From: a virus
Lineage: Duplodnaviria; Caudoviricetes
Virus record (IMG/VR): IMGVR_UViG_3300037601_000024
Span: 8,412 to 72,411 of that record
Length of the DNA: 64,000 nucleotides
Direction: 5' to 3' (one strand)
In this document: piece after piece, positions 6,465-64,000 of the stretch
How positions within the stretch are numbered: position 1 is the stretch's first letter
Layout: each line of letters opens with the position of its first letter
The notes under the pieces: generated by a model
Told to the model about the DNA's origin: nothing
Databases searched by the model: none
The model's input: only the letters and a program-made list of their open reading frames with translations
Translations under genes and position numbers: made by a program

Positions 6465-6559
6465 TTGGCAATCATCTTTGACTATTTACAAGTCATCCGC
6501 ATATGGTATGAATTGTCAGTCAGCAATGACAATACACGGAACAAACGGAGGCATAAGCA

Positions 6560-7732
6560 ATGAGTTCTAACATCACAACACCGGATCAAGGCGTGCTGGT
6601 TCACGGTTTCGACGTCTACGTCCATTCTGTGCCGCGATATCTCGAAGACACCGACGTCACATTGGCGGAATATCAGGAAGCATACGGTTCCGACACGCCT
6701 TTGTTTTCGGAGCGCTTCAAAGCGGCGAAGGCCAAGCGCGAGGATGATCTGAAATCAGATATGACGGCAAAGGTTCACACCATGCCAGGCGCAGCTTCCA
6801 AGCAACCATTCGCCAAGCTGTTTGATCTTGGAAATGCCAAAGCAGCGAAGAACGCTCGCGGCAAAGACATCATGTGTTCAGTCGTCGCACCGCCGACCAA
6901 TTACGAAGGGTGGGTTCCAGATGTGGATCCCAATTACGTCTATCATATCGACAACCTGAAAGCGGTTATGATGGCCGCTGAGCTTGGTATGACCATGCTG
7001 CTCTGGGGAATGCACGGTACGGGTAAAACAACGCTCGTCGAGCAATTCTGCGCACGCACAGGGCGTCCGTGGATTCGGGTGCAGCACACCGTCTCCACAG
7101 AAGAGTCGCACATTCTGGGACAGTACGTGGTCAAAGACGGCGCAACGGTCTTTGAGCTTGGTCCCCTTGCGATCGCGATGCGTGATGGTCTGGTCTACAT
7201 GGCCGACGAATATGACTTTGCGCTACCGTCTGTGACATCGGTCTATCAGCCGGTTCTCGAAGGTAAGCCGCTGGTGATCAAAGAAGCTCCGCCAGAGCTG
7301 CGGATCATCAAACCACACCCGAACTTCCGGTTCTTCGCAACCGGTAACACGAACGGCGCCGGAGATGAGACTGGTCTTTATTCCGGTACTCAGATCATGA
7401 ACGCCGCGAACTATTCGCGCTTCGGTATCACCATCGAAGTGACGTACATGCCGGCCGCTCAAGAGGTCGCAGTGGTCGCGGGTCAGGCGAAGATCCACAA
7501 GGATGACGCCGACCGCCTGGTGAAAGTCGCTAATGAAGTCCGTCGAGGCTTTGAGCGCGGTGACATGTCCGCGACGATCTCGCCTCGTGAACTCATCAAT
7601 GCAGGGATGCTTGCACGTGTCATGGGCGTCGAACCTGACCTCACTAAGGGTTTGGAGCTTGCGTACTGCAACCGCCTGGACTCGACCGACAAGAAGGCGG
7701 TGCTCGACTTCGCGCAACGCCACTTCGGTTAA
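6560..7732 (+). CDS. CobS-like / MoxR-type AAA+ ATPase
   Basis: Walker A GMHGTGKT, Walker B YMADEYD, ATGNTNG, SRF, SPRELI; follows the VWA gene. Confidence 0.9.
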   Translation: MSSNITTPDQGVLVHGFDVYVHSVPRYLEDTDVTLAEYQEAYGSDTPLFSERFKAAKAKREDDLKSDMTAKVHTMPGAASKQPFAKLFDLGNAKAAKNARGKDIMCSVVAPPTNYEGWVPDVDPNYVYHIDNLKAVMMAAELGMTMLLWGMHGTGKTTLVEQFCARTGRPWIRVQHTVSTEESHILGQYVVKDGATVFELGPLAIAMRDGLVYMADEYDFALPSVTSVYQPVLEGKPLVIKEAPPELRIIKPHPNFRFFATGNTNGAGDETGLYSGTQIMNAANYSRFGITIEVTYMPAAQEVAVVAGQAKIHKDDADRLVKVANEVRRGFERGDMSATISPRELINAGMLARVMGVEPDLTKGLELAYCNRLDSTDKKAVLDFAQRHFG

Positions 7733-28384: not shown

Positions 28385-28450
28385 CATTTTCCCAGTTGCG
28401 TTATTGTCAGTCATATGTGACTAATAATAACGCAACGGAGGATATACCGA

Positions 28451-33243: not shown

Positions 33244-33310
33244 TTCGATGCCGATTGTAAGTCATCTTTGAGTATTCTAAAACAGTGCATCAGCAACGGA
33301 GATAAGAGCA

Positions 33311-39321: not shown

Positions 39322-39406
39322 GCGGCACTTGAATAACCCTATTGTCATTCATTCCTGACTATTTTAAAGTCTTCGTATCGACAGCAAAGATACGGAGACT
39401 TTTTTA

Positions 39407-40837
39407 ATGGCAGATGGAATGAACCTACCAGACCTCGCGTTCCCAATCGATCGCATTGTTGAACAGCGAGAGACGGCAATCGCCAAGTTTGGAGAAGCAA
39501 TTTCGCTTCTTACTCAGGCACACAGCACCGCCGAAGCAGCTATGGAGCTGGTTAGAGACGCTTCATACGCCAACACGCACTACGACGACCGAACCAACTA
39601 TCGCAACGCCGTAGACAATGTCCGATCACCGAACGGCTTTGATCGCGAACTGTCCGCAACCGCGTTCCGGCATTACGCGGACGCATCGATCTGGAACGGA
39701 ATCTTTAATCGCACCGGCATCCTCGACATGATGGATCACCGAGAAAAGAAGAAGTGGCGCGAACAACTATCAACAGAGATCGCCGAGATCACCGCTGAGA
39801 ACATTGAAGCGACCATGACCGGCGTCATCTCAGAAGCTCCATTGATGTTCATGAGAGGACTGGCGAACGCTTTCTCGTCGTTGGATAAGCGGTTTAAATC
39901 GCATGACGCTTTCAAAGTCGGTGACCGCATTATCATCACGCGGCTGTTCGATGAGTGGGGATATATGAACCACGGAAGCTGGGCGGAGAACACTCTGACC
40001 GATATCGAACGATGCTTCGCCAAGCTGGACGGTGTCGCTCCCTCGCCAGGTGATCTTCGACAGGCAATCAATGACAGCCGCACTCCTGGCGCCGGACGAC
40101 AGCAAAGCGAGGTTCAGACGCGGTTCTTTAAGGTTCGCGGCTTCAAGAACGGTAACGCTCATTTGTGGTTCACGCGCGACGATCTGGTGAAGCGGGTCAA
40201 TCTGACACTCGCCGACTATTACGGTGAAGTTCTGCCAGACGCAGCGACAAAAGGCGACGGGTCGCCTTGTACGAGTACAGAGGTAGCCAAAGACCTCCAA
40301 TTCTATCGAACGCCAGACGCATTGGCACAGAGGATTATCGATGATTATCCCGTCCACACTGACGCTCACATTCTGGAGCCAAGCGCCGGTGATGGATCGT
40401 TTGTCATCCCACTTTTGAAGCGCGGCAACACTGTCGAGGCTGTGGAGTATGACCATGATCGCGGCAACAAGATCATTGACCGTGCGCGGGTCGAAGGATT
40501 GTCCGGCTACACAGTGCGCAATGCCAACTTCCTCGAGATGGAGCCGCGAGAAGACTTCGACGCGGTGTATATGAACCCGCCATTCTATGGAACGCATTGG
40601 GTCGACCATGTCGTCCACGCGATGAAGTTCGTACAGCCAGGAGGACGATTGTTCGCGATCCTGCCGGCGACAGCCGAGATCGGTCAGACCGCGCGCCACA
40701 AAAGCTTCCGCCAGTGGATGAAGTCATACGAGGGATGGTATCGCGATCCCTTCATGTCACTGCCGGCCGAAAGCTTCGCAGAGTCGGGAACCCGTGTCGC
40801 TACGGTCCTGCTCCGCCTTGAGAAACCACGAGCATAG
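39407..40837 (+). CDS. DNA methyltransferase (amino-MTase, NPPF) with DUF4942-like N-terminal region
   Basis: FYRTP, ILEPSAGDG (motif I), YMNPPFY (motif IV), FAESGT; FKNGNAHLWF. Confidence 0.85.
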   Translation: MADGMNLPDLAFPIDRIVEQRETAIAKFGEAISLLTQAHSTAEAAMELVRDASYANTHYDDRTNYRNAVDNVRSPNGFDRELSATAFRHYADASIWNGIFNRTGILDMMDHREKKKWREQLSTEIAEITAENIEATMTGVISEAPLMFMRGLANAFSSLDKRFKSHDAFKVGDRIIITRLFDEWGYMNHGSWAENTLTDIERCFAKLDGVAPSPGDLRQAINDSRTPGAGRQQSEVQTRFFKVRGFKNGNAHLWFTRDDLVKRVNLTLADYYGEVLPDAATKGDGSPCTSTEVAKDLQFYRTPDALAQRIIDDYPVHTDAHILEPSAGDGSFVIPLLKRGNTVEAVEYDHDRGNKIIDRARVEGLSGYTVRNANFLEMEPREDFDAVYMNPPFYGTHWVDHVVHAMKFVQPGGRLFAILPATAEIGQTARHKSFRQWMKSYEGWYRDPFMSLPAESFAESGTRVATVLLRLEKPRA

Positions 40838-44043: not shown

Positions 44044-44676
44044 ATGAAACTCCCAACCCTTGCTCTCGCTGCGCTGGCATGTGCCGCCGTGGCAAACGCC
44101 GATATCTATGCAGGCGGATCACTCGGCACCTGCACCGTGGACCGAAACAACATCGAAGTCGATGGCTGCAAACAATTCGAAGGCATCCTCGGATACGAAT
44201 ACAGCGACAAGATCGATATCGAGGCGCGCTACAACATCCTCGACGGCGACATCACCGGTCTGAACGGCGCATCGAACAGCAAAGGCACCTATGGTCGCAA
44301 AGAGCTGAAACTCGGCGCAACCTACACCTTCAATCCAGAAGACAAATCTAGCTTCTACGCCGGCGCCTTCATTGGTCGTGGCAAGATCGAGTCTGAGTTC
44401 GTTGGCACCGCAGACAAGCACCCCACGATCACCATCTCCGCCGACAGTGAGACGTCTGAATTCCTTTACGGCTTCACCGCTGGTTATGGCTGGTCGGTCA
44501 AGCCAAACGTGTCGGTCTTCGCAGAGACGGCGTACACGTCTTATCTCGATAACGGCATCGACACTCGCTACCACGTTGCAGGCAACGGCGCGACCGGTGA
44601 GCTTCACCCTGGCGGCGTGATGGGAGAAGACCGCTCCTACGACCTGAAAGTGGGTTTCCGCTACCGCTTCGACTAA
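44044..44676 (+). CDS. Outer-membrane beta-barrel protein (porin/OmpA-membrane-domain-like)
   Basis: Signal peptide ...AVANA, amphipathic beta strands, C-terminal YDLKVGFRYRFD. Confidence 0.8.
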   Translation: MKLPTLALAALACAAVANADIYAGGSLGTCTVDRNNIEVDGCKQFEGILGYEYSDKIDIEARYNILDGDITGLNGASNSKGTYGRKELKLGATYTFNPEDKSSFYAGAFIGRGKIESEFVGTADKHPTITISADSETSEFLYGFTAGYGWSVKPNVSVFAETAYTSYLDNGIDTRYHVAGNGATGELHPGGVMGEDRSYDLKVGFRYRFD

Positions 44677-47429: not shown

Positions 47430-48300
47430 CACTCCCTCTTTTCTTATCGTTTATCGATAATAGAACACCCACTATGTAACACACCCTAAGTGTTCTATAA
47501 GTAGTATGCAATTCCCACGATAAAATAGTACCGGTCTTTCGCCGCGCGGCACATACGTCATACACACGTATATAGGTCGATCCCAAATCAGTAACGATTG
47601 AAGCTCCTGGCGATACATAAGGAATTACCAGAAGAACCAGCTATTTTGCCTGTGAATCAATTAGAGTCACAACGAATCTAGAGACAGATATGGCTATAAA
47701 GGATCACTAGTGCTGACCGGTTTTGTAGACGTATCACAAAGCAGCTCAGATTGACTCAGGAGAGACGTGGGAGAGCTTAGTGGTAGGTAGGTGACCTATA
47801 GAGGTAAAACGCGCTGTATGAGCTTCTAAGAGGTTAGCTGTTTTGGGTGGATATGAGGTATGTAAGATAAAGGAAGCAGGAAAGCCGGAAATAAAAAATT
47901 CCGCGCCAAGCCAAACAATTCGTCAAGCGGCTAATTTCCTTCCCTTCGCACCTGCTCCCTCACACTAATCTGCCTTCACCTGGTGACTGAGCTCACGGCT
48001 CCAGGATACCAGCAAACACCGGCTATCCAGCGGTCCCATGGGATCGGCTATACAAGAGAATGGCTCCCCTCCCCTATATAATAATCGGCTAGCTTTAGCC
48101 TTGCCGCTGGAAAGCCGAAGCCACGGGTTCGGATCGCCTTGGCTGACCTCCTGAGTATCCCACGGCAATTTTGTGCCAATATACAGAGCCATGGCGCAAT
48201 TTTATTCTTGCCATACCGTGGCATCGTTAGTGGCTTCTTCCGTTCCCGAGTGATTTCACGCAAAAATTTGCTACATTGTATGTGTCGCGACAGCAAGCGC
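47430..48300. other. Long non-coding region with purine-skewed tract, repeats and nested inverted repeats
   Basis: About 870 bp without a credible ORF. Confidence 0.6.
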
Positions 48301-48316
48301 GACGTTGTTTGACAAT
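48284..48316 (+). promoter_or_regulatory. Leader hairpin (ACAGCAAG loop) + boxA-like motif, copy A
   Basis: GTCGCG-ACAGCAAG-CGCGAC then TGTTTGACAAT; downstream of a TGCTACATT extended -10. Confidence 0.65.
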
Positions 48317-48330
48317 CTACGGAGGTGCCT

Positions 48331-48726
48331 ATGGCACATGTATTCTATCGTGAGAACGGTGAGCCGTTCACTCTTTCGCCGATCGAAGTGGTCGCCGAGC
48401 CAATCGCAGAAGATTTCTACGAGCTGCTCGAAGACTTCGGCGCCAAGTGCGACGAAATTCTTGAAGAGGGAGATGAGTAATGGCTAGAGCTGTTTTGATC
48501 GATGTGGACGCGGACGGGAACGAGCAAGAGCTGGTCACCGTCGAGGTTCCGAAGGGACTTGAGACATTCGAAGAGTTTCACGAATGGCTCGATAAGACAC
48601 TCTTCAGCGAGGAACCTGCCGATGCTTGAAGCCGTCATTGAATTCGCCGGTTACGCTGCAATGGTCGCAGCCTATCTCGCTAAATGGTTCTTGATCGCTC
48701 TCCTGGCGATCGCGTTCACCAAGTAA
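48331..48726 (+). CDS. Three tiny ORFs (48331-48480 acidic, 48480-48629 acidic, 48622-48726 single TM)
   Basis: Translated by hand; GGAGG RBS; TAATG and overlap coupling; terminator follows. Confidence 0.6.
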
Positions 48727-48737
48727 CTCCACCGAGG

Positions 48738-48766
48738 AAGCCAGGTTTCACGGCCTGGCTTTTCTC
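48738..48766 (+). terminator. Intrinsic terminator
   Basis: AAGCCAGG / CCTGGCTT + TTCT. Confidence 0.65.
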
Positions 48767-48882
48767 ATGCCTCGCTGCCGTCCCATGGCATCTTCATTTC
48801 CCAGCAACCCCGACTTAATGGCAAGCGAAGATGCCAGGTTAATCGATATTGTAGGCGTGTTTACGTGTGCTAGATTCAGTGT

Positions 48883-48931
48883 GTCAGCCGGTGTGTGACA
48901 GCAAGCGCACCTCTGACGGCTGTTTGAAAAT
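48883..48931 (+). promoter_or_regulatory. Leader hairpin + boxA-like motif, copy B
   Basis: GTCAG..GTGTG-ACAGCAAG-CGCAC..CTGAC then TGTTTGAAAAT. Confidence 0.65.
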
Positions 48932-48950
48932 CTAGCGGAGGTTTATCCCC

Positions 48951-49823
48951 ATGAGCAAGTCTATCAAGACTGAGATCGAAGCCGTGAAATCCAATAACGC
49001 GGCTGAATGTGCTCTCTGGAGCATTGTCGTGGTTATGGGTCTATTCGGAGCCTATGGAATGTACGTTCTCTTGTGGGACGTTTCCAAGGTTGCCTACTTC
49101 TTCACTGCCGCAATCTTCTTTGCAGTGAGCATCGCTACCCCAATGATGGTGATGCGCGCTGAGAAAGGCACAGGCAAATGGCAAGCGTCTGCGTTTGTCA
49201 TCGCCGGATTGCTCGCGCTCGTTGATTGGGGTGCCGGTTACAATTCCGGTATCCAAGTCGAGGCGCAGGTGATGAAGGATAAGTGGGTCATTGGTGAGCA
49301 GGCTTATAATCAGCGCGTCATCGACGCCACGACCGATCTGAAAACTGCCAAAACAAATCTCCAAGAGGCTACTGAGAAACGTATGGCAATTGTGTTCCCT
49401 GATCTGTCCGATGCCGGACCTCAGACCACGAAAGCCAAGACTGAAGCTTACAAGGCGGAAGTCAAAGCGGCCGACACAGCGGTGAAGCTCACCACTAAAG
49501 CCAGGGATGAAGCGCAAGCGACATTCGACGCACTGCCGGCCACGTATCAAAAGCCACGCCTGATCGATCATACCTTTTTGGGTTTCGTGATGGCAGGCTT
49601 GCAGTTCATCACGCTTTTCGGCTTCGTTACTGTTCAGCGCATCACACGCCAGCGTGTCGAGGCTATTCAGTCAACGGCTGAAGCGATTGAAGCCGAGGTG
49701 AACCGGAAGGTATCGGCTCGCACACGTTCCCGTCCTGCTCGTAAGAAAGGCGCGAACAAGAAAGGTGAACAGCCAAAGACGAAGACCCTGCCAGATGGTC
49801 AGGTGATCTATCTCACAGCCTAG
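48951..49823 (+). CDS. Multi-pass membrane protein with coiled coil and basic tail
   Basis: 3 N-terminal TM segments, coiled coil, fourth TM segment, K/R tail. Confidence 0.75.
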   Translation: MSKSIKTEIEAVKSNNAAECALWSIVVVMGLFGAYGMYVLLWDVSKVAYFFTAAIFFAVSIATPMMVMRAEKGTGKWQASAFVIAGLLALVDWGAGYNSGIQVEAQVMKDKWVIGEQAYNQRVIDATTDLKTAKTNLQEATEKRMAIVFPDLSDAGPQTTKAKTEAYKAEVKAADTAVKLTTKARDEAQATFDALPATYQKPRLIDHTFLGFVMAGLQFITLFGFVTVQRITRQRVEAIQSTAEAIEAEVNRKVSARTRSRPARKKGANKKGEQPKTKTLPDGQVIYLTA

Positions 49824-49837
49824 TGGAGTACGAGATT

Positions 49838-49866
49838 AGGGAGCTCTCCGGAGTTCCCTTTTCTTT
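49838..49866 (+). terminator. Intrinsic terminator
   Basis: AGGGAGCTC / GAGTTCCCT + TTTCTTT. Confidence 0.7.
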
Positions 49867-50060
49867 GTGCTCACCTAGCAAGCCATGGCGCCTTTAGTAC
49901 CGGTCTTTGGTCGCGCGGCTATACGTGTATAGGACTGCCATAAACGAGTGTTGCAGTTTGCAATAAGCCATCACGAAACAGGGTTTTGCCATTAGTAACA
50001 CAATGTTTGTGTGCTATCTTATGAGTGTCAGCAAGACAAGACACTTAATGAGGCACACAA

Positions 50061-50186
50061 ATGAAGAAACGCAGCAAAGAATGCTTGATCACCAGCCACT
50101 TTGGTTCGGTCTATCTGGGAAAGCAAGCGCGCCGACAAAAGCGTGATCGCAAGCTCAGTGACAAGCGTCGCCGCAGAGCACGATAA
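50061..50186 (+). CDS. 41-aa Arg/Lys-rich peptide
   Basis: MKKRSKECLITSHFGSVYLGKQARRQKRDRKLSDKRRRRAR; GAGG RBS; TAATG coupling. Confidence 0.6.
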   Translation: MKKRSKECLITSHFGSVYLGKQARRQKRDRKLSDKRRRRAR

Positions 50187-50305
50187 TGACACCTGACATT
50201 ATCCACCCGCTCGCTGAGATCGCCTTTTACAAGATCTTCCCGATCGCCGGCACTCTCATCGCAATTGGCTGCCTTTTGGTTTGCACCACTGCCAAAGAGT
50301 GGTAG
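50186..50305 (+). CDS. 39-aa single-TM peptide
   Basis: MTPDIIHPLAEIAFYKIFPIAGTLIAIGCLLVCTTAKEW; terminator at 50351-50396. Confidence 0.55.
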   Translation: MTPDIIHPLAEIAFYKIFPIAGTLIAIGCLLVCTTAKEW

Positions 50306-50633
50306 AATTCGAGTCTGACCTGGCTTGTTACCTTTCGCCGGTCAAACCCTGAAAGCGCCTCCGGAACTAAACCACCCGGTAAGGCGCTTTCTTTTTGGGT
50401 TGATGCCGAGCCATGGCAATTTTCAATTATAGAAAGGCTCGTCCGGCGCCACTTATTATAGAACGGCTCCCATTAGCCATTTCCCCAAAAGAAAGGCGCC
50501 ATGGCGCCTTGTGTAGACCGGTATAGATCGCCATGGCTCCAGGCGGCAATTGTCAGTCAAACATTACAAATTTGTAATGTAGAAATTGTGTTCTGACCCT
50601 TGTGTTACACCCTCTGTGTGCTATCTATTGTGT

Positions 50634-50676
50634 GTCGGAAGCGAACAGCAAGCGCGACCGACAGTTGTTTGAAAAC
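50634..50676 (+). promoter_or_regulatory. Leader hairpin + boxA-like motif, copy C
   Basis: GTCGG..GCG-AACAGCAAG-CGC..CCGAC then TGTTTGAAAAC. Confidence 0.65.
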
Positions 50677-50715
50677 TGCTCAATAGTGAGCATTCATTTA
50701 CGGAGGACATTACAC

Positions 50716-51459
50716 ATGTCAAATCGCACTTCAGTTACCACTGCAAACTCTGAGCTTCTGGATCAACCAATGATCGAAGCTATGTGGAGCGCTTCACCGC
50801 AACAGGTTGGAGGTATGCGCAAGCGTATCAGTGACCTGATCGACGACCGGAAAGCTCGCGACAGCGAGAAACTTCCGGAGGGAGGTGAACTTTCAAAGGA
50901 CTTTCGTCACTTGGAAGACTGGAAAGAATCGGACGCACTGCACCGGTTTTTCCTCGCGATGCAGATTGATCCGAAAGGATACATTCTCAATCCATACTTG
51001 GACGACGCAGAACTGAAAAAGCGCGGTTTTGATCCTTCCGCTCGGACACGCAACCTCAAAGCTTACAAGAAAGTCCGCGAGGTCGCTGAATATGTCGTCA
51101 CCGGACAAGCGAAGCTTGAAGCGGTGTTTAAGACGTTCGTCGCGTGCTCTATCGTCGCGTCTCGCACGGTGAGCTTTATTGACAGCAACGTCTGCGAGCG
51201 GTTCCTCTCAAGCATTCCTCTGACCGATGTCAGCGCGGACCTTGCGGAAGCTATCGACGCTTTCCAAGCGAAGCACATGACAACCGGAGCTGCGACACAA
51301 GCGTCTCAAATGCGCTTGACGCTCGCTAATCTTGGAGCGGTCACGATGCAGAAGGAAGACGGTCGCAAAGGTTTCGTTCTGAAACCGGAAAGCGGTCTGA
51401 TCCAGGCGCTCGCTGAGCGCTTCGGGATGCAGGATCAGTTGCAGCAAATCGCTGCCTAA
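50716..51459 (+). CDS. Hypothetical protein, possible winged-helix C-terminus
   Basis: GGAGG RBS; NLKAYKKV; GAATQASQMRLTLANLG resembles the C-terminus of 30611-31321. Confidence 0.75.
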   Translation: MSNRTSVTTANSELLDQPMIEAMWSASPQQVGGMRKRISDLIDDRKARDSEKLPEGGELSKDFRHLEDWKESDALHRFFLAMQIDPKGYILNPYLDDAELKKRGFDPSARTRNLKAYKKVREVAEYVVTGQAKLEAVFKTFVACSIVASRTVSFIDSNVCERFLSSIPLTDVSADLAEAIDAFQAKHMTTGAATQASQMRLTLANLGAVTMQKEDGRKGFVLKPESGLIQALAERFGMQDQLQQIAA

Positions 51460-51480
51460 ACCGACGTAAAACAACACGGA

Positions 51481-51509
51481 AAGGGACGCTCAATCGAGCG
51501 TCCCTTTTT
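51481..51509 (+). terminator. Intrinsic terminator
   Basis: AAGGGACGCT / AGCGTCCCTT + TTTG. Confidence 0.75.
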
Positions 51510-51714
51510 GCGTTTGTATATGGGAAGAAACCGCCTCCCTATGGGTGGAACTCGCCTTGCCTAGAGAGGGAGCCGCCTTGGGACGATCTGAATTGTCACT
51601 CAAACATTACAAATATTTAATCTAAAACCCATGCCACACACCTTGCGTAACACACGAAATGTGTTACATTAGAGATAGTTCAGGTGGTTCTGAACTAACT
51701 CGAAAGGTAAAACA

Positions 51715-51989
51715 ATGATTGATCAAAAAGACCAACGCGACATGGACCGGATTAAGCGACACAGAGACCGGATCAGGAAAGCGAAAAAAGCAAGAGAGGA
51801 GCGGTCCCGAAAGGACCGTTCCGACCTCCTCGAAGCGATCGGACTCTCATTTTCCAGCTTCATGTGGATGTCATAAAAATGAAAGGTTTTAAACAGTTCG
51901 TCAAAGACACCGCATTCAATCTTCTGCTTTTGTTCTGGGTTGCACTCGCATTCTTCTGGGTCATGGAGCAGGTCAACATTAACTTTTAG
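51715..51989 (+). CDS. 53-aa Arg/Lys-rich peptide (51715-51876) and 36-aa TM peptide (51879-51989)
   Basis: Translated by hand; AAGG RBS; terminator at about 52009-52043. Confidence 0.55.
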
Positions 51990-52054
51990 TCATAATCGAG
52001 ACACCCTGGGGACCGCGTTACACCTGTAGCGCGGTCTCTTTGTGCGCTCCCTCC

Positions 52055-52098
52055 AAACATTACAAATAATTAATGTGCATTAAACATTTGTAATGTTT
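52055..52098. repeat. 44-bp imperfect palindrome (ACATTACAAAT family)
   Basis: AAACATTACAAAT...ATTTGTAATGTTT, 38/44 self-complementary; related sites at 50561-50580 and 51602-51614. Confidence 0.85.
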
Positions 52099-62506: not shown

Positions 62507-63679
62507 TCAACTGGCTTCGGTAGGCATTGTAACAATCGATTGAATATAATCGGACCAGGCTTGAAGCGCTTCCCGCCTTTCTTCGAGATAGTCGTAGTGA
62601 TTATAGTGACTGAGAGCGCCGAGCGATCGGACAGAGTGATTGATACACCGCCGGATTAAATCGTCGCCGATACCTTTCTTCACTTGTGGCAATTGAGTTG
62701 CGAACGTCCGCCGGAGATCATGTGCCGTAAACCGGCCGTTGAACCGCTCGTCATCGTCAAACTTCTTTAGCGCCTGCGTTACCGCCGAACTCTTGCAGAG
62801 GAAGACATCTCCGATCTTACGAGTGCCAACCTGCTCGCGCAGAAGCTTAATGGCGAACAAGCTGAGCGGAACTTTGTGCTCCCTACCATTCTTGGTTCTC
62901 TCTTTGGGAATAATCCAAACCCTATTTTCAAAGTCGATATCCTTGACCTTCATAGACGCCGTCTCGCCTGATCGCTGAGCGGTCAGAAGGATGAACCGTG
63001 TCAGAGCAGCACTGTCGCGTGTGTAACGCCGTTCCCGGTCGCAGGCGTGCCAGAGAGCTTTAATCTCATCTTCCGATAACACCCTGGTTCTTCGCCTCTT
63101 GCCGGCAACATGTGGCACTGAACGCATAGGGTCGTATTCGACATACTCTCTTTGCGCACCCCAATTAAAGATGACAGCCAGGACGACACGGCAGGTTCTC
63201 GCAACACCCTCACCTCCCTCCTTCGTCAACAAGCTCTCCAAGAACTGAAAGAGCGCACCTCTCCGGATCGACTTTAATCTGCGATCGCCGAAAACCGGCA
63301 GAATGTGTACGTCCAGCATGATGCGATAAACACGCTGGCTGGCTGGCTTTAAGTTCCTGAACTTCGGAGATTCCAGATACATTTTGGCTAAATCTCGAAA
63401 CGTCCATGTTCCAAATACATCCTCGTCGCCGATACCAATACCGGCGTCCAATTCCTCTTGAAGCTTGAGAGATCGCCGGCGTGCCTCTCTCAGTGAGATC
63501 GTGTCGGCGTCACCAACTTTCTTTTCTTTTTGTTGGCCGTATCCGGTGAAGCGATAAAAATATGTTTTACTTCCTGATTTATACACCCTTAGACAGAGTC
63601 CTGATCCGGTCACGTCGCTTAGGCGATAGTCTCTATTTTTGACCGGCGCGCGATCGACTTTTGTCTGCGTTAAACCCAC
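62507..63679 (-). CDS. int: Tyrosine integrase with N-terminal arm-binding domain
   Basis: DYRLSD..GSGLCLRV..SGSKTY; catalytic R (TAQRSGE), K (TKNG), HDLRR, NH, HY; GTG start after AGGA. Confidence 0.95.
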   Translation of the reverse strand: MGLTQTKVDRAPVKNRDYRLSDVTGSGLCLRVYKSGSKTYFYRFTGYGQQKEKKVGDADTISLREARRRSLKLQEELDAGIGIGDEDVFGTWTFRDLAKMYLESPKFRNLKPASQRVYRIMLDVHILPVFGDRRLKSIRRGALFQFLESLLTKEGGEGVARTCRVVLAVIFNWGAQREYVEYDPMRSVPHVAGKRRRTRVLSEDEIKALWHACDRERRYTRDSAALTRFILLTAQRSGETASMKVKDIDFENRVWIIPKERTKNGREHKVPLSLFAIKLLREQVGTRKIGDVFLCKSSAVTQALKKFDDDERFNGRFTAHDLRRTFATQLPQVKKGIGDDLIRRCINHSVRSLGALSHYNHYDYLEERREALQAWSDYIQSIVTMPTEAS

Positions 63680-63705
63680 AGTTGTATCCTCAATAATTTG
63701 AATCC

Positions 63706-63725
63706 TGCGTCCAGTTTGCGTCCAG
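63706..63725. repeat. Tandem 9-bp direct repeats, candidate integrase arm-type sites
   Basis: TGCGTCCAG at 63706 and 63717 (11-bp period). Confidence 0.55.
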
Positions 63726-63873
63726 ATTGAGCAGGTTTTCGACATTAGTAACGGATTGTTGTTATTTACAATTTTTTATCGCGGTCAAGCGCGTTCTGTT
63801 GCCGTTATTGGGGTTAAGGGTCTAATTAATTGTAATCTTTGACTTATTTTCTGTTTTTCGATTTTTGGTAGAA

Positions 63874-63889
63874 TTATTCGCTTATTAAC
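63874..63889 (+). promoter_or_regulatory. CtrA-box-like site upstream of flgE
   Basis: TTAT-N7-TTAAC, one mismatch to TTAA-N7-TTAAC. Confidence 0.4.
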
Positions 63890-63934
63890 CTATGATTTCT
63901 ACTTTCGGTTGCATCGACTGCAGGAGCAACCGAC

Positions 63935-64000
63935 ATGAGTATATCATCATCTTTGAATGCCGGGGTCATGGGCCTCAACGCCAACTCGACCCGCCTCTCA
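63935..64000 (+). CDS. flgE: Flagellar hook protein N-terminus (host gene, truncated by the window)
   Basis: MSISSSLNAGVMGLNANSTRLS resembles alphaproteobacterial FlgE N-termini; AGGAG RBS. Confidence 0.75.
   Translation, partial: MSISSSLNAGVMGLNANSTRLS

What the first reader, a model, noticed from the sequence alone, without database searches (positions are those of the whole stretch)
48284..50676. Covarying leader hairpins with a fixed ACAGCAAG loop followed by a boxA-like motif: possible new nut-type antitermination signal
Seen in sequence: three leaders just after promoters have different stems but the same loop. They are GTCGCG-[ACAGCAAG]-CGCGAC (48284), GTGTG-[ACAGCAAG]-CGCAC within GTCAG/CTGAC (48883), and GCG-[AACAGCAAG]-CGC within GTCGG/CCGAC (50634). 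Each is followed within 3 nt by TGTTTGA(C/A)AA. A fourth, AGTGTC-[AGCAAGACAA]-GACACT (50024), lacks that motif, and CAGCAA recurs in leaders near 33290, 39381, 43508 and 44716. Established: lambda nut and rrn leaders combine a boxB hairpin with boxA (E. coli GCTCTTTAACAA); these copies match it at 8-9 of 12 positions in the rrn boxB-boxA order. Inference: a phage antitermination or translational-control element with a loop unlike the GNRA-like lambda boxB.
Basis: partly seen in the sequence, partly recalled or inferred. Interest (0 to 1): 0.8.

Follow-up and report, generated by a model that had tools for sequence, protein, structure and literature searches.

The report
Phage leader hairpins with host-type boxA
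Three operons of a prophage of the marine bacterium Henriciella begin with a conserved RNA hairpin followed by a copy of the host's own ribosomal-RNA boxA signal, so the phage probably borrows the host's Nus transcription factors much as phage lambda does, in a bacterial group where this has not been described.

Summary
Three promoter-proximal leaders (48284, 48883, 50634) each have a hairpin with an AGCAA-containing loop, then 2-3 nt, then G(C/U)UGUUUGA(A/C)AA. I found 16 hairpin+boxA modules (14 distinct) in seven loci (this phage and relatives). All fold the same way with different stems: 6th pair G-C to A-U, 4th pair G-C to A-U, and inner stems GCG/GAAG/GAAAG/CGG. The loop core and the downstream motif stay fixed.

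The prophage sits beside flgE in a Henriciella genome. That host's rrn leader carries GCUGUUUGACAU in the boxA slot, and 6 of 8 rrn loci (7 family genomes) have it at the same position. Across Alphaproteobacteria the slot reads UCUUUGACA or UGUUUGA(C/A)A. The phage motif is therefore the host-lineage variant of rrn boxA, with the same hairpin-to-boxA spacing.

Best reading (about 45%): a nut/rrn-like site that loads Nus factors and confers termination resistance, chiefly against Rho. Rivals are suhB-type Nus translational repression and a Nus-independent loop-binding regulator. No function was tested and no transcription start was mapped.

CAGCAA also marks seven boxA-less leaders, one of them before a conserved 41-aa arginine-rich peptide gene. 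Verdict: new variant of a known kind. The scan had noted this stretch before.

The parts
48269..48277 (+). Unit 1 extended -10 promoter element TGCTACATT. The predicted start is G48284.
   Evidence: The same TGCTAnnnT, then 4 nt, then GTGTC is present in all four units and is kept in orthologues. No transcription-start data.
48284..48303 (+). Hairpin 1: GUCGCG / ACAGCAAG loop / CGCGAC.
   Evidence: Orthologue stems are GUCACG/CGUGAC (L071) and GUCGCA/UGCGAC (L169), two compensatory pairs.
48304..48315 (+). boxA-like 12-mer GUUGUUUGACAA. It lies 5 nt before the Shine-Dalgarno GGAGG (48321-48325); the ATG is at 48331.
   Evidence: It matches the host rrn leader GCUGUUUGACAU.
48737..48766 (+). 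Intrinsic terminator closing unit 1: GCCAGG..CCTGGC followed by TTTTCTC.
   Evidence: Read.
48868..48876 (+). Unit 2 extended -10 element TGCTAGATT.
48883..48917 (+). Hairpin 2, two-tier: outer GUCAG/CUGAC, inner GUGUG/CGCAC, loop ACAGCAAG.
   Evidence: The outer stem becomes GUUACAGG/CCUGUAAC in L073. The whole stem becomes CAUCGGAG/CUCCGAUG in L203. The inner U.G pair fits only the + strand RNA.
48919..48930 (+). boxA-like 12-mer GCUGUUUGAAAA, upstream of the 290-aa membrane protein gene (48951-49823).
   Evidence: The motif GCTGTTTGAAAAT is also present in the rrn leader of another alphaproteobacterium (L206).
49838..49866 (+). Intrinsic terminator closing unit 2.
   Evidence: 9-bp stem followed by TTTCTTT.
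50012..50020 (+). Unit 4 extended -10 element TGCTATCTT.
50025..50044 (+). Hairpin 4, without boxA: UGUC-AGCAA-GACA (or GUGUC..GACAC).
   Evidence: Orthologues are GUGUC-AGCAA-GACAC (L169), GUC-AGCAA-GAC (L073) and GUCG-AAGCAAG-CGAC (L203).
50061..50186 (+). 41-aa arginine-rich peptide P0035, a candidate loop reader. This role is inferred only.
   Evidence: Homologues are present in L070, L071, L169, L073 and L203. No Pfam or Atlas match.
50351..50397 (+). Intrinsic terminator closing unit 4: GAAAGCGCC..GGCGCTTTC followed by TTTTT.
   Evidence: Read.
50619..50627 (+). Unit 3 extended -10 element TGCTATCTA.
50634..50662 (+). Hairpin 3, two-tier: outer GUCGG/CCGAC, inner GCG/CGC, loop AACAGCAAG.
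   Evidence: Inner stems are GAAG/CUUC (L071), GAAAG/CUUUC (L169) and CGG/CCG (L073). In L203 the stem is a continuous 9 bp with loop AAGCAAG.
50664..50675 (+). boxA-like 12-mer GUUGUUUGAAAA.
50677..50692 (+). Second leader hairpin UGCUCA-AUAG-UGAGCA, between boxA and the Shine-Dalgarno of the 247-aa gene (50716-51459).
   Evidence: The structure is kept with different sequence: UGACCA/UGGUCA in L071 and L073, UCCGGA/UCCGGA in L169, L203 and L204. The U-tail is not conserved, so it is not a true terminator.
51477..51515 (+). Strong two-way intrinsic terminator closing unit 3.
   Evidence: 15-bp stem.
39366..39402 (+). boxA-less leader hairpin with loop GACAGCAAA. Its 3' arm contains the Shine-Dalgarno of gene 39407-40837.
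6512..6533 (+). boxA-less leader hairpin AUUGUCA-GUCAGCAA-UGACAAU, before gene 6560-7732.

Best explanation
These are nut-like RNA control sites at the 5' ends of three host-RNA-polymerase-transcribed operons of a roughly 103-kb temperate Henriciella phage.

Proposed sequence of events:
1. Transcription starts at the first base of a hairpin. Its stem is free to vary, but its apical loop always shows AGCAA (usually ACAGCAAG).
2. One to three nucleotides later comes G(C/U)UGUUUGA(A/C)AA, a copy of the host lineage's ribosomal-RNA boxA.
3. As this RNA emerges, host NusB-S10 binds the boxA and, with NusA, NusG and SuhB, stays tethered to the elongating polymerase, as at rrn leaders and lambda nut sites.
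4. The modified polymerase resists premature termination, most plausibly the Rho-dependent silencing that otherwise hits prophage accessory genes.
5. The phage-specific loop is the counterpart of boxB and is probably read by a phage factor. It also gives the mRNA a protected 5' end.

Shown here: the sequences, the conserved fold with compensatory changes, the identity with the host rrn boxA, and the shared spacing.

Inferred: the transcription start, Nus binding, the effect on termination, and the loop reader.
For: Motif statistics:
- TGTTTGAMAA occurs three times in the window, against 0.29 expected, each time 2-3 nt after the hairpin. No other YTNTTTGAMA exists in the 72-kb record.

Conserved structure:
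- All 16 hairpin+boxA modules from seven loci (this phage and relatives) fold with AGCAA in the apical loop.
- Stems differ by compensatory changes while loop and boxA are kept.
- U.G pairs fit only the + strand RNA.

Host identification:
- A near-identical prophage (290-aa protein 98% identical) lies beside flgE/flgK/flgI in a 3.27-Mb contig.
- Its FlgI is 100% identical to that of a Henriciella genome.

Match to the host boxA:
- That genome's rrn leader has GCUGUUUGACAU, 3 nt after a hairpin. Its 16S-23S spacer has a hairpin, 1 nt, then UGUUUGUAAA.
- 6 of 8 rrn loci (from 7 family genomes) carry UGUUUGACAU at -241 to -259 from the 16S start, or -249 in L165.
- In other Alphaproteobacteria the same slot reads UCUUUGA(C/A)AUUG or UGUUUGA(C/A)A. 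One genome reads GCUGUUUGAAAAUUG, which contains the phage 12-mer.
- The host genome has only 32 TGTTTGAMAW in 3.7 Mb on both strands. A chance hit in a 250-nt leader is about 1 in 1000.

Persistence in distant relatives:
- More distant phages keep a boxA-like element before the homologous 247-aa gene although the loop has changed: UAUUUGACAA in L171 and the canonical-type UCUUUGACAA in L172.

Background from the literature: rrn-type Nus complexes prevent Rho-dependent termination (PMC5725501, PMC4807359).
Against: - No transcription start, expression or binding data.
- Each boxA unit is short and ends in its own intrinsic terminator followed by a fresh promoter. The block then meets convergent genes at about 52.3 kb, so lambda-style read-through has no clear target.
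- Cellular boxAs known outside rRNA repress translation and promote Rho termination (PMC5725501). [quoted passage not shown]
- Position 4 is G, whereas C4 is critical in E. coli (PMC5725501). The host's own rrn boxA has G there too.
- No N homologue was found.
- The CAGCAA loop motif also occurs in seven leaders without boxA, so the hairpin may have a separate job.
Confidence: 0.45

Rival explanations
1. Nus-dependent repression, of the suhB or lambda nutL type. NusB-S10 and the other Nus factors bind the boxA and loop the leader back to the polymerase. This blocks ribosome entry at the nearby Shine-Dalgarno. Expression of these prophage genes is then held low and tied to the pool of free Nus factors, with Rho termination following.
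For: - The boxA identity is as in the main explanation.
- The boxA ends 5-6 nt before GGAGG in copies 1 and 2. The suhB boxA is 6 nt from its Shine-Dalgarno.
- Every non-rRNA cellular boxA tested so far represses, including one before a ParE-like toxin gene (PMC5725501).
- Lambda N with Nus factors at nutL also represses N translation (cited in PMC5725501).
Against: - The boxA to Shine-Dalgarno distance is not conserved: about 27-33 nt, with an intervening hairpin, in copy 3 and in L203 copy 2. The hairpin-to-boxA distance, by contrast, is fixed.
- This model does not explain the conserved loop.
- A phage would gain little from repressing three separate operons through a host factor, unless they are toxic.
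Confidence: 0.2
2. Nus-independent leader operator. The 5'-terminal hairpin stabilises the mRNA against 5'-end-dependent decay. Its AGCAA loop is the binding site of a phage RNA-binding regulator of translation or stability. The U/A-rich tract before the Shine-Dalgarno is a translational enhancer that resembles boxA only by convergence.
For: - CAGCAA is among the most enriched hexamers in leaders and occurs in seven leaders without boxA, often directly before the Shine-Dalgarno (CAGCAAcGGAG). It recurs there in distant relatives.
- At 39366-39402 the hairpin sequesters the Shine-Dalgarno.
- Other units have 5' hairpins with unrelated loops, for example at 51688.
- A conserved arginine-rich peptide gene follows hairpin 4.
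Against: - A 10-12-nt identity with the host lineage's rrn boxA, including its unusual G at position 4, is unlikely by convergence.
- So is the same 1-3-nt spacing from a hairpin as in the host rrn leader and spacer.
- The motif occurs nowhere else in the 72-kb record.
Confidence: 0.2
3. Promoter-proximal attenuator. The GC-rich hairpin followed by UUGUUUG acts as a weak intrinsic terminator or pause that limits transcription of each unit.
For: There is a stem-loop followed within 1-3 nt by a U-rich run. Copy 3 has a second terminator-like hairpin.
Against: - The U run is interrupted by G and separated from the stem by GGC or AG.
- The scan did not call these sites as terminators.
- The same layout exists in the host rrn leader, which is not terminated.
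- The U-tail of the second hairpin is not conserved.
Confidence: 0.03
4. DNA-level operator. The inverted repeats are binding sites of a dimeric DNA-binding protein just downstream of the -10 element.
For: The position overlaps +1 to +35 of four promoters. A winged-helix protein is encoded nearby.
Against: - The half-site sequences change freely while complementarity is kept, and the non-palindromic loop is what is conserved.
- G.U pairs would be C-A mismatches on the other strand.
- Other palindromes (GCCATGGC, ACATTACAAA-TTTGTAATGT) are better operator candidates.
Confidence: 0.03

Closest known systems
Ribosomal RNA operon antitermination leader (boxB-boxA-boxC; NusB, S10, NusA, NusG, SuhB, S4)
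   Same: - The same boxA sequence as the host's own rrn leader.
- The same order: hairpin, then boxA.
- The same 1-3-nt spacing.
- A position shortly after a housekeeping-type promoter.
   Different: - It sits on short translated phage mRNAs, not on long untranslated rRNA.
- The hairpin loop is strictly conserved here, whereas the host rrn hairpins have unrelated loops.
- No boxC was identified.
Lambda nutL/nutR sites with N protein
   Same: - A phage-borne pairing of a host-type boxA with a phage-specific hairpin whose loop is the conserved part.
- Placement just after early-type promoters.
- Several copies per genome.
- A small arginine-rich protein gene sits behind one of the hairpins.
   Different: - The order is reversed (lambda has boxA, then boxB).
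- The loop AGCAA cannot form the GNRA-like fold of GAAAA or GACAA.
- No N homologue.
- The host is an alphaproteobacterium.
- Each unit is insulated by its own terminator and the next promoter.
mEp021 Gp17 with three nut sites (Nus-dependent non-lambdoid coliphages, PMC11893012)
   Same: It shows that N-like arginine-rich antiterminators with more than two nut sites exist outside the lambdoid phages. One nut site lies upstream of the antiterminator gene.
   Different: That is an enterobacterial host with an adenine-rich boxB loop and an experimentally shown antiterminator. Here nothing has been shown, and the loop and host differ.
suhB 5'UTR boxA (Nus-factor autoregulation, PMC5725501)
   Same: A boxA in the leader of a protein-coding gene, a few nucleotides from the Shine-Dalgarno.
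   Different: suhB has no adjoining conserved hairpin and encodes a Nus factor. Its effect is repression. The genes here are phage accessory genes.
HK022 put RNA
   Same: A cis-acting RNA structure just downstream of early phage promoters.
   Different: put consists of two stem-loops of about 70 nt that act without boxA or Nus factors. Here there is one hairpin plus a boxA.

Membership tests
boxA (NusB-S10 binding element) | Sequence agrees with the boxA of the host's own rrn leader | tested here: met
   The host rrn leader has GCUGUUUGACAU. 6 of 8 rrn loci (7 family genomes) have UGUUUGACAU in the same slot, and other Alphaproteobacteria have UCUUUGACA or UGUUUGAAAA there. The phage has G(C/U)UGUUUGA(A/C)AA.
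boxA (NusB-S10 binding element) | Gammaproteobacterial consensus GYUCUUUAANA with C at position 4 | tested here: not met
   The phage has G at position 4 and G at position 8, giving 8-9 of 12 matches to E. coli. The host rrn boxA shares both deviations (PMC5725501).
boxA (NusB-S10 binding element) | Lies in the transcribed leader on the sense strand, largely unpaired | tested here: inconclusive
   It lies 20-42 nt downstream of the predicted +1 of conserved extended -10 promoters. It is mostly unpaired, or in weak helices, in minimum-energy folds.
boxA (NusB-S10 binding element) | Bound by NusB-S10 | not testable with these tools
   Needs EMSA or ITC with host proteins.
Lambdoid nut site | boxA followed by the boxB hairpin | tested here: not met
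   The hairpin precedes boxA in all 16 modules.
Lambdoid nut site | boxB pentaloop of GNRA-like type (G first, A last) | tested here: not met
   The invariant core is AGCAA. The loops are ACAGCAAG, AAGCAAG, UCAGCAAG and AGCAA.
Lambdoid nut site | Phage N protein with an arginine-rich motif | tested here: inconclusive
   No Pfam or PHROG N family was found among the proteins scanned. A 41-aa arginine-rich peptide, conserved in five related loci, follows hairpin 4.
Lambdoid nut site | Downstream terminators that are read through | not testable with these tools
   Intrinsic terminators are present at 48737, 49838, 50351 and 51477. Read-through is unknown.
rrn antitermination leader | Hairpin, then boxA within a few nucleotides | tested here: met
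   The spacing is 2-3 nt in this phage and 1-3 nt in its relatives. The host leader has 3 nt and the host spacer 1 nt.
rrn antitermination leader | boxC downstream; long untranslated transcript | tested here: not met
   The leaders run straight into a Shine-Dalgarno and short ORFs. boxC was not searched for formally.
suhB-type boxA repression | boxA within 50 nt of the start codon of a protein-coding gene | tested here: met
   The boxA end is 16, 21 and 41 nt from the ATG in copies 1-3.
Any Rfam family | Covariance-model match | tested here: not met
   No match at gathering score in the window. The E-value scan of 48200-50800 gave only a chance lncRNA hit.

The most novel reading that the evidence does not exclude
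This is a new N-like antitermination and RNA-control system in phages of Alphaproteobacteria. The conserved 41-aa arginine-rich peptide (50061-50186) reads the AGCAA loop.

- At the three leaders that also carry the host's variant boxA, it assembles a Nus-factor termination-resistant complex.
- At its own leader and at the six other boxA-less CAGCAA leaders, it acts as a genome-wide RNA-level regulator.

The G4 boxA shared by phage and host would then be a natural specificity variant of the NusB-S10 to boxA contact.
Probability: 0.15. Interest if true: 0.8.

Novelty: new variant of a known kind. Interest (0 to 1): 0.6.

Why it matters
- Factor-dependent processive antitermination through boxA-containing RNA sites has been worked out almost wholly in enterobacteria and their phages. 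A phage of a marine alphaproteobacterium that copies its host's rrn boxA, including the lineage-specific G where E. coli requires C, next to a covarying hairpin with a new invariant loop, would extend the nut principle to another bacterial class.
- It offers a natural test of how NusB-S10 specificity has drifted.
- It provides a compact module of about 35 nt, testable in Caulobacter-type hosts, for protecting genes from Rho.
- If the effect is instead repressive, it would be the first phage use of the suhB-type mechanism.

Tried and rejected
- **IMG/VR pattern scan** for ACAGCAAGCGC..TGTTTGA: 61 hits, all in coding sequence without stems. They serve as a negative control.
- **Phage database DNA search** of 47500-52000: no match.
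- **Search for relatives of the 247-aa protein in IMG/VR:** none.
- **Scan of 262 Hyphomonadaceae genomes** for CAGCAA..TGTTTGAMAA: 44 hits, of which the 30 retrieved were inspected. All were coding coincidences, for example one conserved gene end in about 20 genomes, and none had the hairpin.
- **Cluster of three TGTTTGACA in host genome G001 at 1.805-1.814 Mb:** all inside ORFs.
- **Rhizobium phage RHEph10,** the closest isolate by DNA polymerase (41% identity): its single boxA-like match lies inside a CDS.
- **RNAalifold on plain MAFFT alignments** proposed pairing of loop ACAGC with boxA G(Y)UGU.
  - This helix excludes the hairpin and is 2.9-9.3 kcal/mol less stable.
  - The boxA-less CAGCAA leaders have no such partner.
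  - I treat it as an artefact of two invariant motifs. For copy 1, a switch that sequesters boxA is not excluded.
- **Covariance model:** not built. The three paralogues have different stem architectures and MAFFT put them out of structural register. Pairs were tabulated from single-sequence folds instead.
- **Pfam, PHROG, Atlas and PDB searches** of the small proteins and the 247-aa protein gave no named family.
- **Frame error:** my query window:48332-48480 was one base out of frame (the true ORF is 48331-48480), so that single negative does not count.
- **Foldseek's weak top hit** of the 247-aa model to the Roquin ROQ domain (E 0.09, TM 0.23) is not meaningful. VIA-align shows only a generic winged helix.

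Full report
**1. The observation**

- TGTTTGA(A/C)AA occurs exactly three times in the 64-kb window, at 48306, 48921 and 50666. Shuffles expect 0.29, and none of 100 shuffles reaches three.
- A looser pattern, YTNTTTGAMA, finds only these three in the whole 72-kb virus record.
- Each copy lies 2-3 nt after a hairpin whose loop is (A)ACAGCAAG.
A start about 7 nt after the -10 therefore falls on the G that opens the stem, and the hairpin is the 5' end of the RNA. This start is inferred.
- Each unit ends in an intrinsic terminator (48737-48766, 49838-49866, 50351-50397, 51477-51515) and is followed by the next promoter.

**2. Relatives and covariation**

The window is part of an IMG/VR record. 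DNA searches of isolated phages found nothing. A motif scan of IMG/VR returned 61 chance hits in coding sequence, none with more than 3 bp next to the loop.

Protein searches opened the way:
- The 290-aa protein behind copy 2 has three homologues.
- The 247-aa protein behind copy 3 has thirty.

I fetched the DNA around nine of them. Six of these loci (L070, L071, L073, L169, L203, L204; 72-100% identity in the 247-aa protein) carry the same modules. Together with the window this gives 16 hairpin+boxA modules, 14 of them distinct, plus five orthologues of the boxA-less hairpin 4. All fold with AGCAA in the apical loop.

The stems change by compensation:

| Copy | This phage | Relatives |
|---|---|---|
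| 1 | GUCGCG/CGCGAC | GUCACG/CGUGAC (L071); GUCGCA/UGCGAC (L169) |
| 2, outer stem | GUCAG/CUGAC | GUUACAGG/CCUGUAAC (L073); whole stem CAUCGGAG/CUCCGAUG (L203) |
| 3, inner stem | GCG/CGC | GAAG/CUUC (L071); GAAAG/CUUUC (L169); CGG/CCG (L073); 9-bp GUCAGCAGA/UCUGUUGAC (L203) |
| 4 | GUGUC..GACAC | GUC/GAC (L073); GUCG/CGAC (L203) |

- The loop varies only outside the core: ACAGCAAG, AACAGCAAG, UCAGCAAG, AAGCAAG, AGCAA.
- U.G pairs occur, for example in GUGUG/CGCAC. They would be C-A mismatches on the other strand, so the + strand RNA is the folded form.
- The hairpin-to-boxA distance is always 1-3 nt. The boxA-to-Shine-Dalgarno distance varies from 5 to about 33 nt.

**3. Host and the boxA test**

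- The near-identical prophage in a 3.27-Mb metagenome contig lies next to flgE, flgK, flgL, flgI and fliG.
- That FlgI is 100% identical to the FlgI of a Henriciella sp. genome. That genome itself lacks the prophage.
- Its single rrn operon has a TTGACG-17-TATAAG promoter, GC-rich hairpins, and then GCUGUUUGACAU three bases after a hairpin. The 16S-23S spacer has a hairpin, one base, then UGUUUGUAAA.
- Among eight rrn loci from seven Hyphomonadaceae genomes, six carry UGUUUGACAU at -241 to -259 from the 16S start (-249 in L165). The two loci of the remaining genome carry UUCUUUGAAC.
- In a sample across the class, most leaders read g(c/u)UCUUUGA(C/A)Auug. Several read gcUGUUUGACAuug in the same context. 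One reads gcUGUUUGAAAAuug, which contains the phage 12-mer of copy 2.

UGUUUGA is therefore the position-4 G variant of the alphaproteobacterial rrn boxA, and the phage carries the variant of its own host lineage. The host genome holds only 32 matches to TGTTTGAMAW in 3.7 Mb on both strands. A chance match inside a 250-nt leader is therefore about 1 in 1000.

More distant phages keep a boxA-like element before the homologous 247-aa gene, although promoter type and loop have changed. L171 has UAUUUGACAA after a CGCGAC/GUCGCG hairpin. L172 has the canonical-type UCUUUGACAA. None of these claims rests on the unpublished genome G302, which I left out.

**4. What it most likely does**

The sequence evidence makes a NusB-S10 site likely (my estimate is about 70-75%). 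What the bound Nus factors then do is open.

I favour rrn-like termination resistance, aimed mainly at Rho, for three reasons:
- The module copies the rrn layout (hairpin, 1-3 nt, boxA).
- It sits at the very start of independently promoted prophage accessory operons, each with its own intrinsic terminator.
- rrn-type complexes act against Rho (PMC5725501, PMC4807359).

A lambda-type version, in which a phage protein reads the conserved loop, is possible. A conserved 41-aa arginine-rich peptide is encoded right behind the boxA-less hairpin 4, much as N lies behind nutL and mEp021 gp17 behind nutR1 (PMC11893012). It has no detectable family.

Three points count against read-through as the purpose:
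- The units are insulated by terminator and promoter pairs.
- The block ends against convergent genes at about 52.3 kb.
- The known cellular boxAs outside rRNA repress translation and favour Rho termination. The suhB boxA lies 6 nt from its Shine-Dalgarno (PMC5725501), as in copies 1 and 2 here.

**5. The loop motif is wider than the boxA**

- CAGCAA is among the most enriched hexamers in leaders. It lies in ten + strand leaders.
- Seven of these have no boxA. Most follow the phage's other, operator-bearing promoter class (ATTGTAAGTCAT..TGACTAT).
- Several place CAGCAA directly before the Shine-Dalgarno. Two place it in hairpin loops: 6512-6533, and 39366-39402, where the 3' arm holds the Shine-Dalgarno.
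- Distant relatives also show CAGCAAcGGAG and CAGCAAuGGAG.

The loop is thus likely a recognition signal in its own right, and the three nut-like modules combine it with boxA.

**6. Comparison and novelty**

- No Rfam family matches.
- The module fails the lambdoid nut definition in order and in loop type.
- It meets the rrn layout but sits on translated mRNAs.
- It meets the positional criterion of suhB-type boxAs.
- The closest isolated phages by DNA polymerase (Rhizobium phage RHEph10 group, 41%) have no leader boxA.
- 262 Hyphomonadaceae genomes have no further copy.

I rate it a new variant of a known kind, real as a cis-element, with the mechanism untested.

**7. Limits**

- There are no transcription starts and no binding or expression data.
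- Covariation was tabulated from single-sequence folds, not from a covariance model, because the paralogues differ in architecture.
- Host assignment rests on one integrated copy and on FlgI identity.
- A note from this scan had already flagged the same stretch and the arginine-rich peptides.

Noticed in passing
48188-50537: GCCATGGC palindromes: five of the six (G)CCATGGC sites in the window cluster here, 60-130 nt upstream of the boxA-unit promoters (48188, 49882, 50410, 50498, 50530; half-site at 48783). The palindrome is also seen in L169. It may be the operator of a separate regulator.
   Followed up: partly
50561-50580, 51604-51613, 52057-52096: ACATTACAAA / TTTGTAATGT inverted repeats. 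One is a perfect 20-bp palindrome just upstream of the unit 3 promoter. A split pair lies at the junction with the convergent - strand genes. They look like operators.
   Followed up: partly
50716-51459: The 247-aa protein is conserved in at least 30 clusters, many on contigs of about 103-109 kb. The AlphaFold model is confident (pLDDT 91.5). The C-terminal half (about 133-240) is a winged helix (Z 8.4, rmsd 2.7, 81 aligned) and the N-terminal half is helical without a match. It is probably a DNA-binding regulator. It is the gene most constantly linked to a boxA.
   Followed up: partly
51715-51876: A second arginine/lysine-rich small protein (53 aa, P0034) lies behind a promoter with a 5' hairpin GUUCAG/CUGAAC that lacks AGCAA. 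It is conserved in L169, L071, L204 and L073.
   Followed up: partly
33255, 39345, 43475, 44680 and many others: A second promoter class has a conserved block ATTGTAAGTCATnTnTGACTATnnT, with an inner AGTCA-N4-TGACT palindrome. Other first-stage findings already note it as a regulon of about 30 copies. The boxA units lack it.
   Followed up: no
L159 (host rrn), L160-L167, L205-L224: Hyphomonadaceae and some other Alphaproteobacteria have G at boxA position 4 (UGUUUGACAU), where E. coli needs C. This implies a shifted NusB-S10 specificity in these lineages.
   Followed up: partly
62507-64000; L074, L075, L078: The prophage is integrated beside flgE, not in a tRNA gene. The same integrase occurs twice, 102,738 bp apart, on a 112-kb JGI contig, which indicates a circular or terminally redundant genome of about 102.7 kb with two ParB-like genes. 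A same-species genome (G001) lacks the prophage.
   Followed up: partly
28390-28440: A long leader hairpin (GUUGCGUUAUU..AAUAACGCAAC) lies between a TGCTAGCAT -10 element and the Shine-Dalgarno of gene 28451. It is another 5' structured leader, without AGCAA.
   Followed up: no
44044-44676: An outer-membrane beta-barrel protein (OMP_b-brl, E 4.6e-13) is encoded in the accessory region. It is a likely lysogenic-conversion gene.
   Followed up: no
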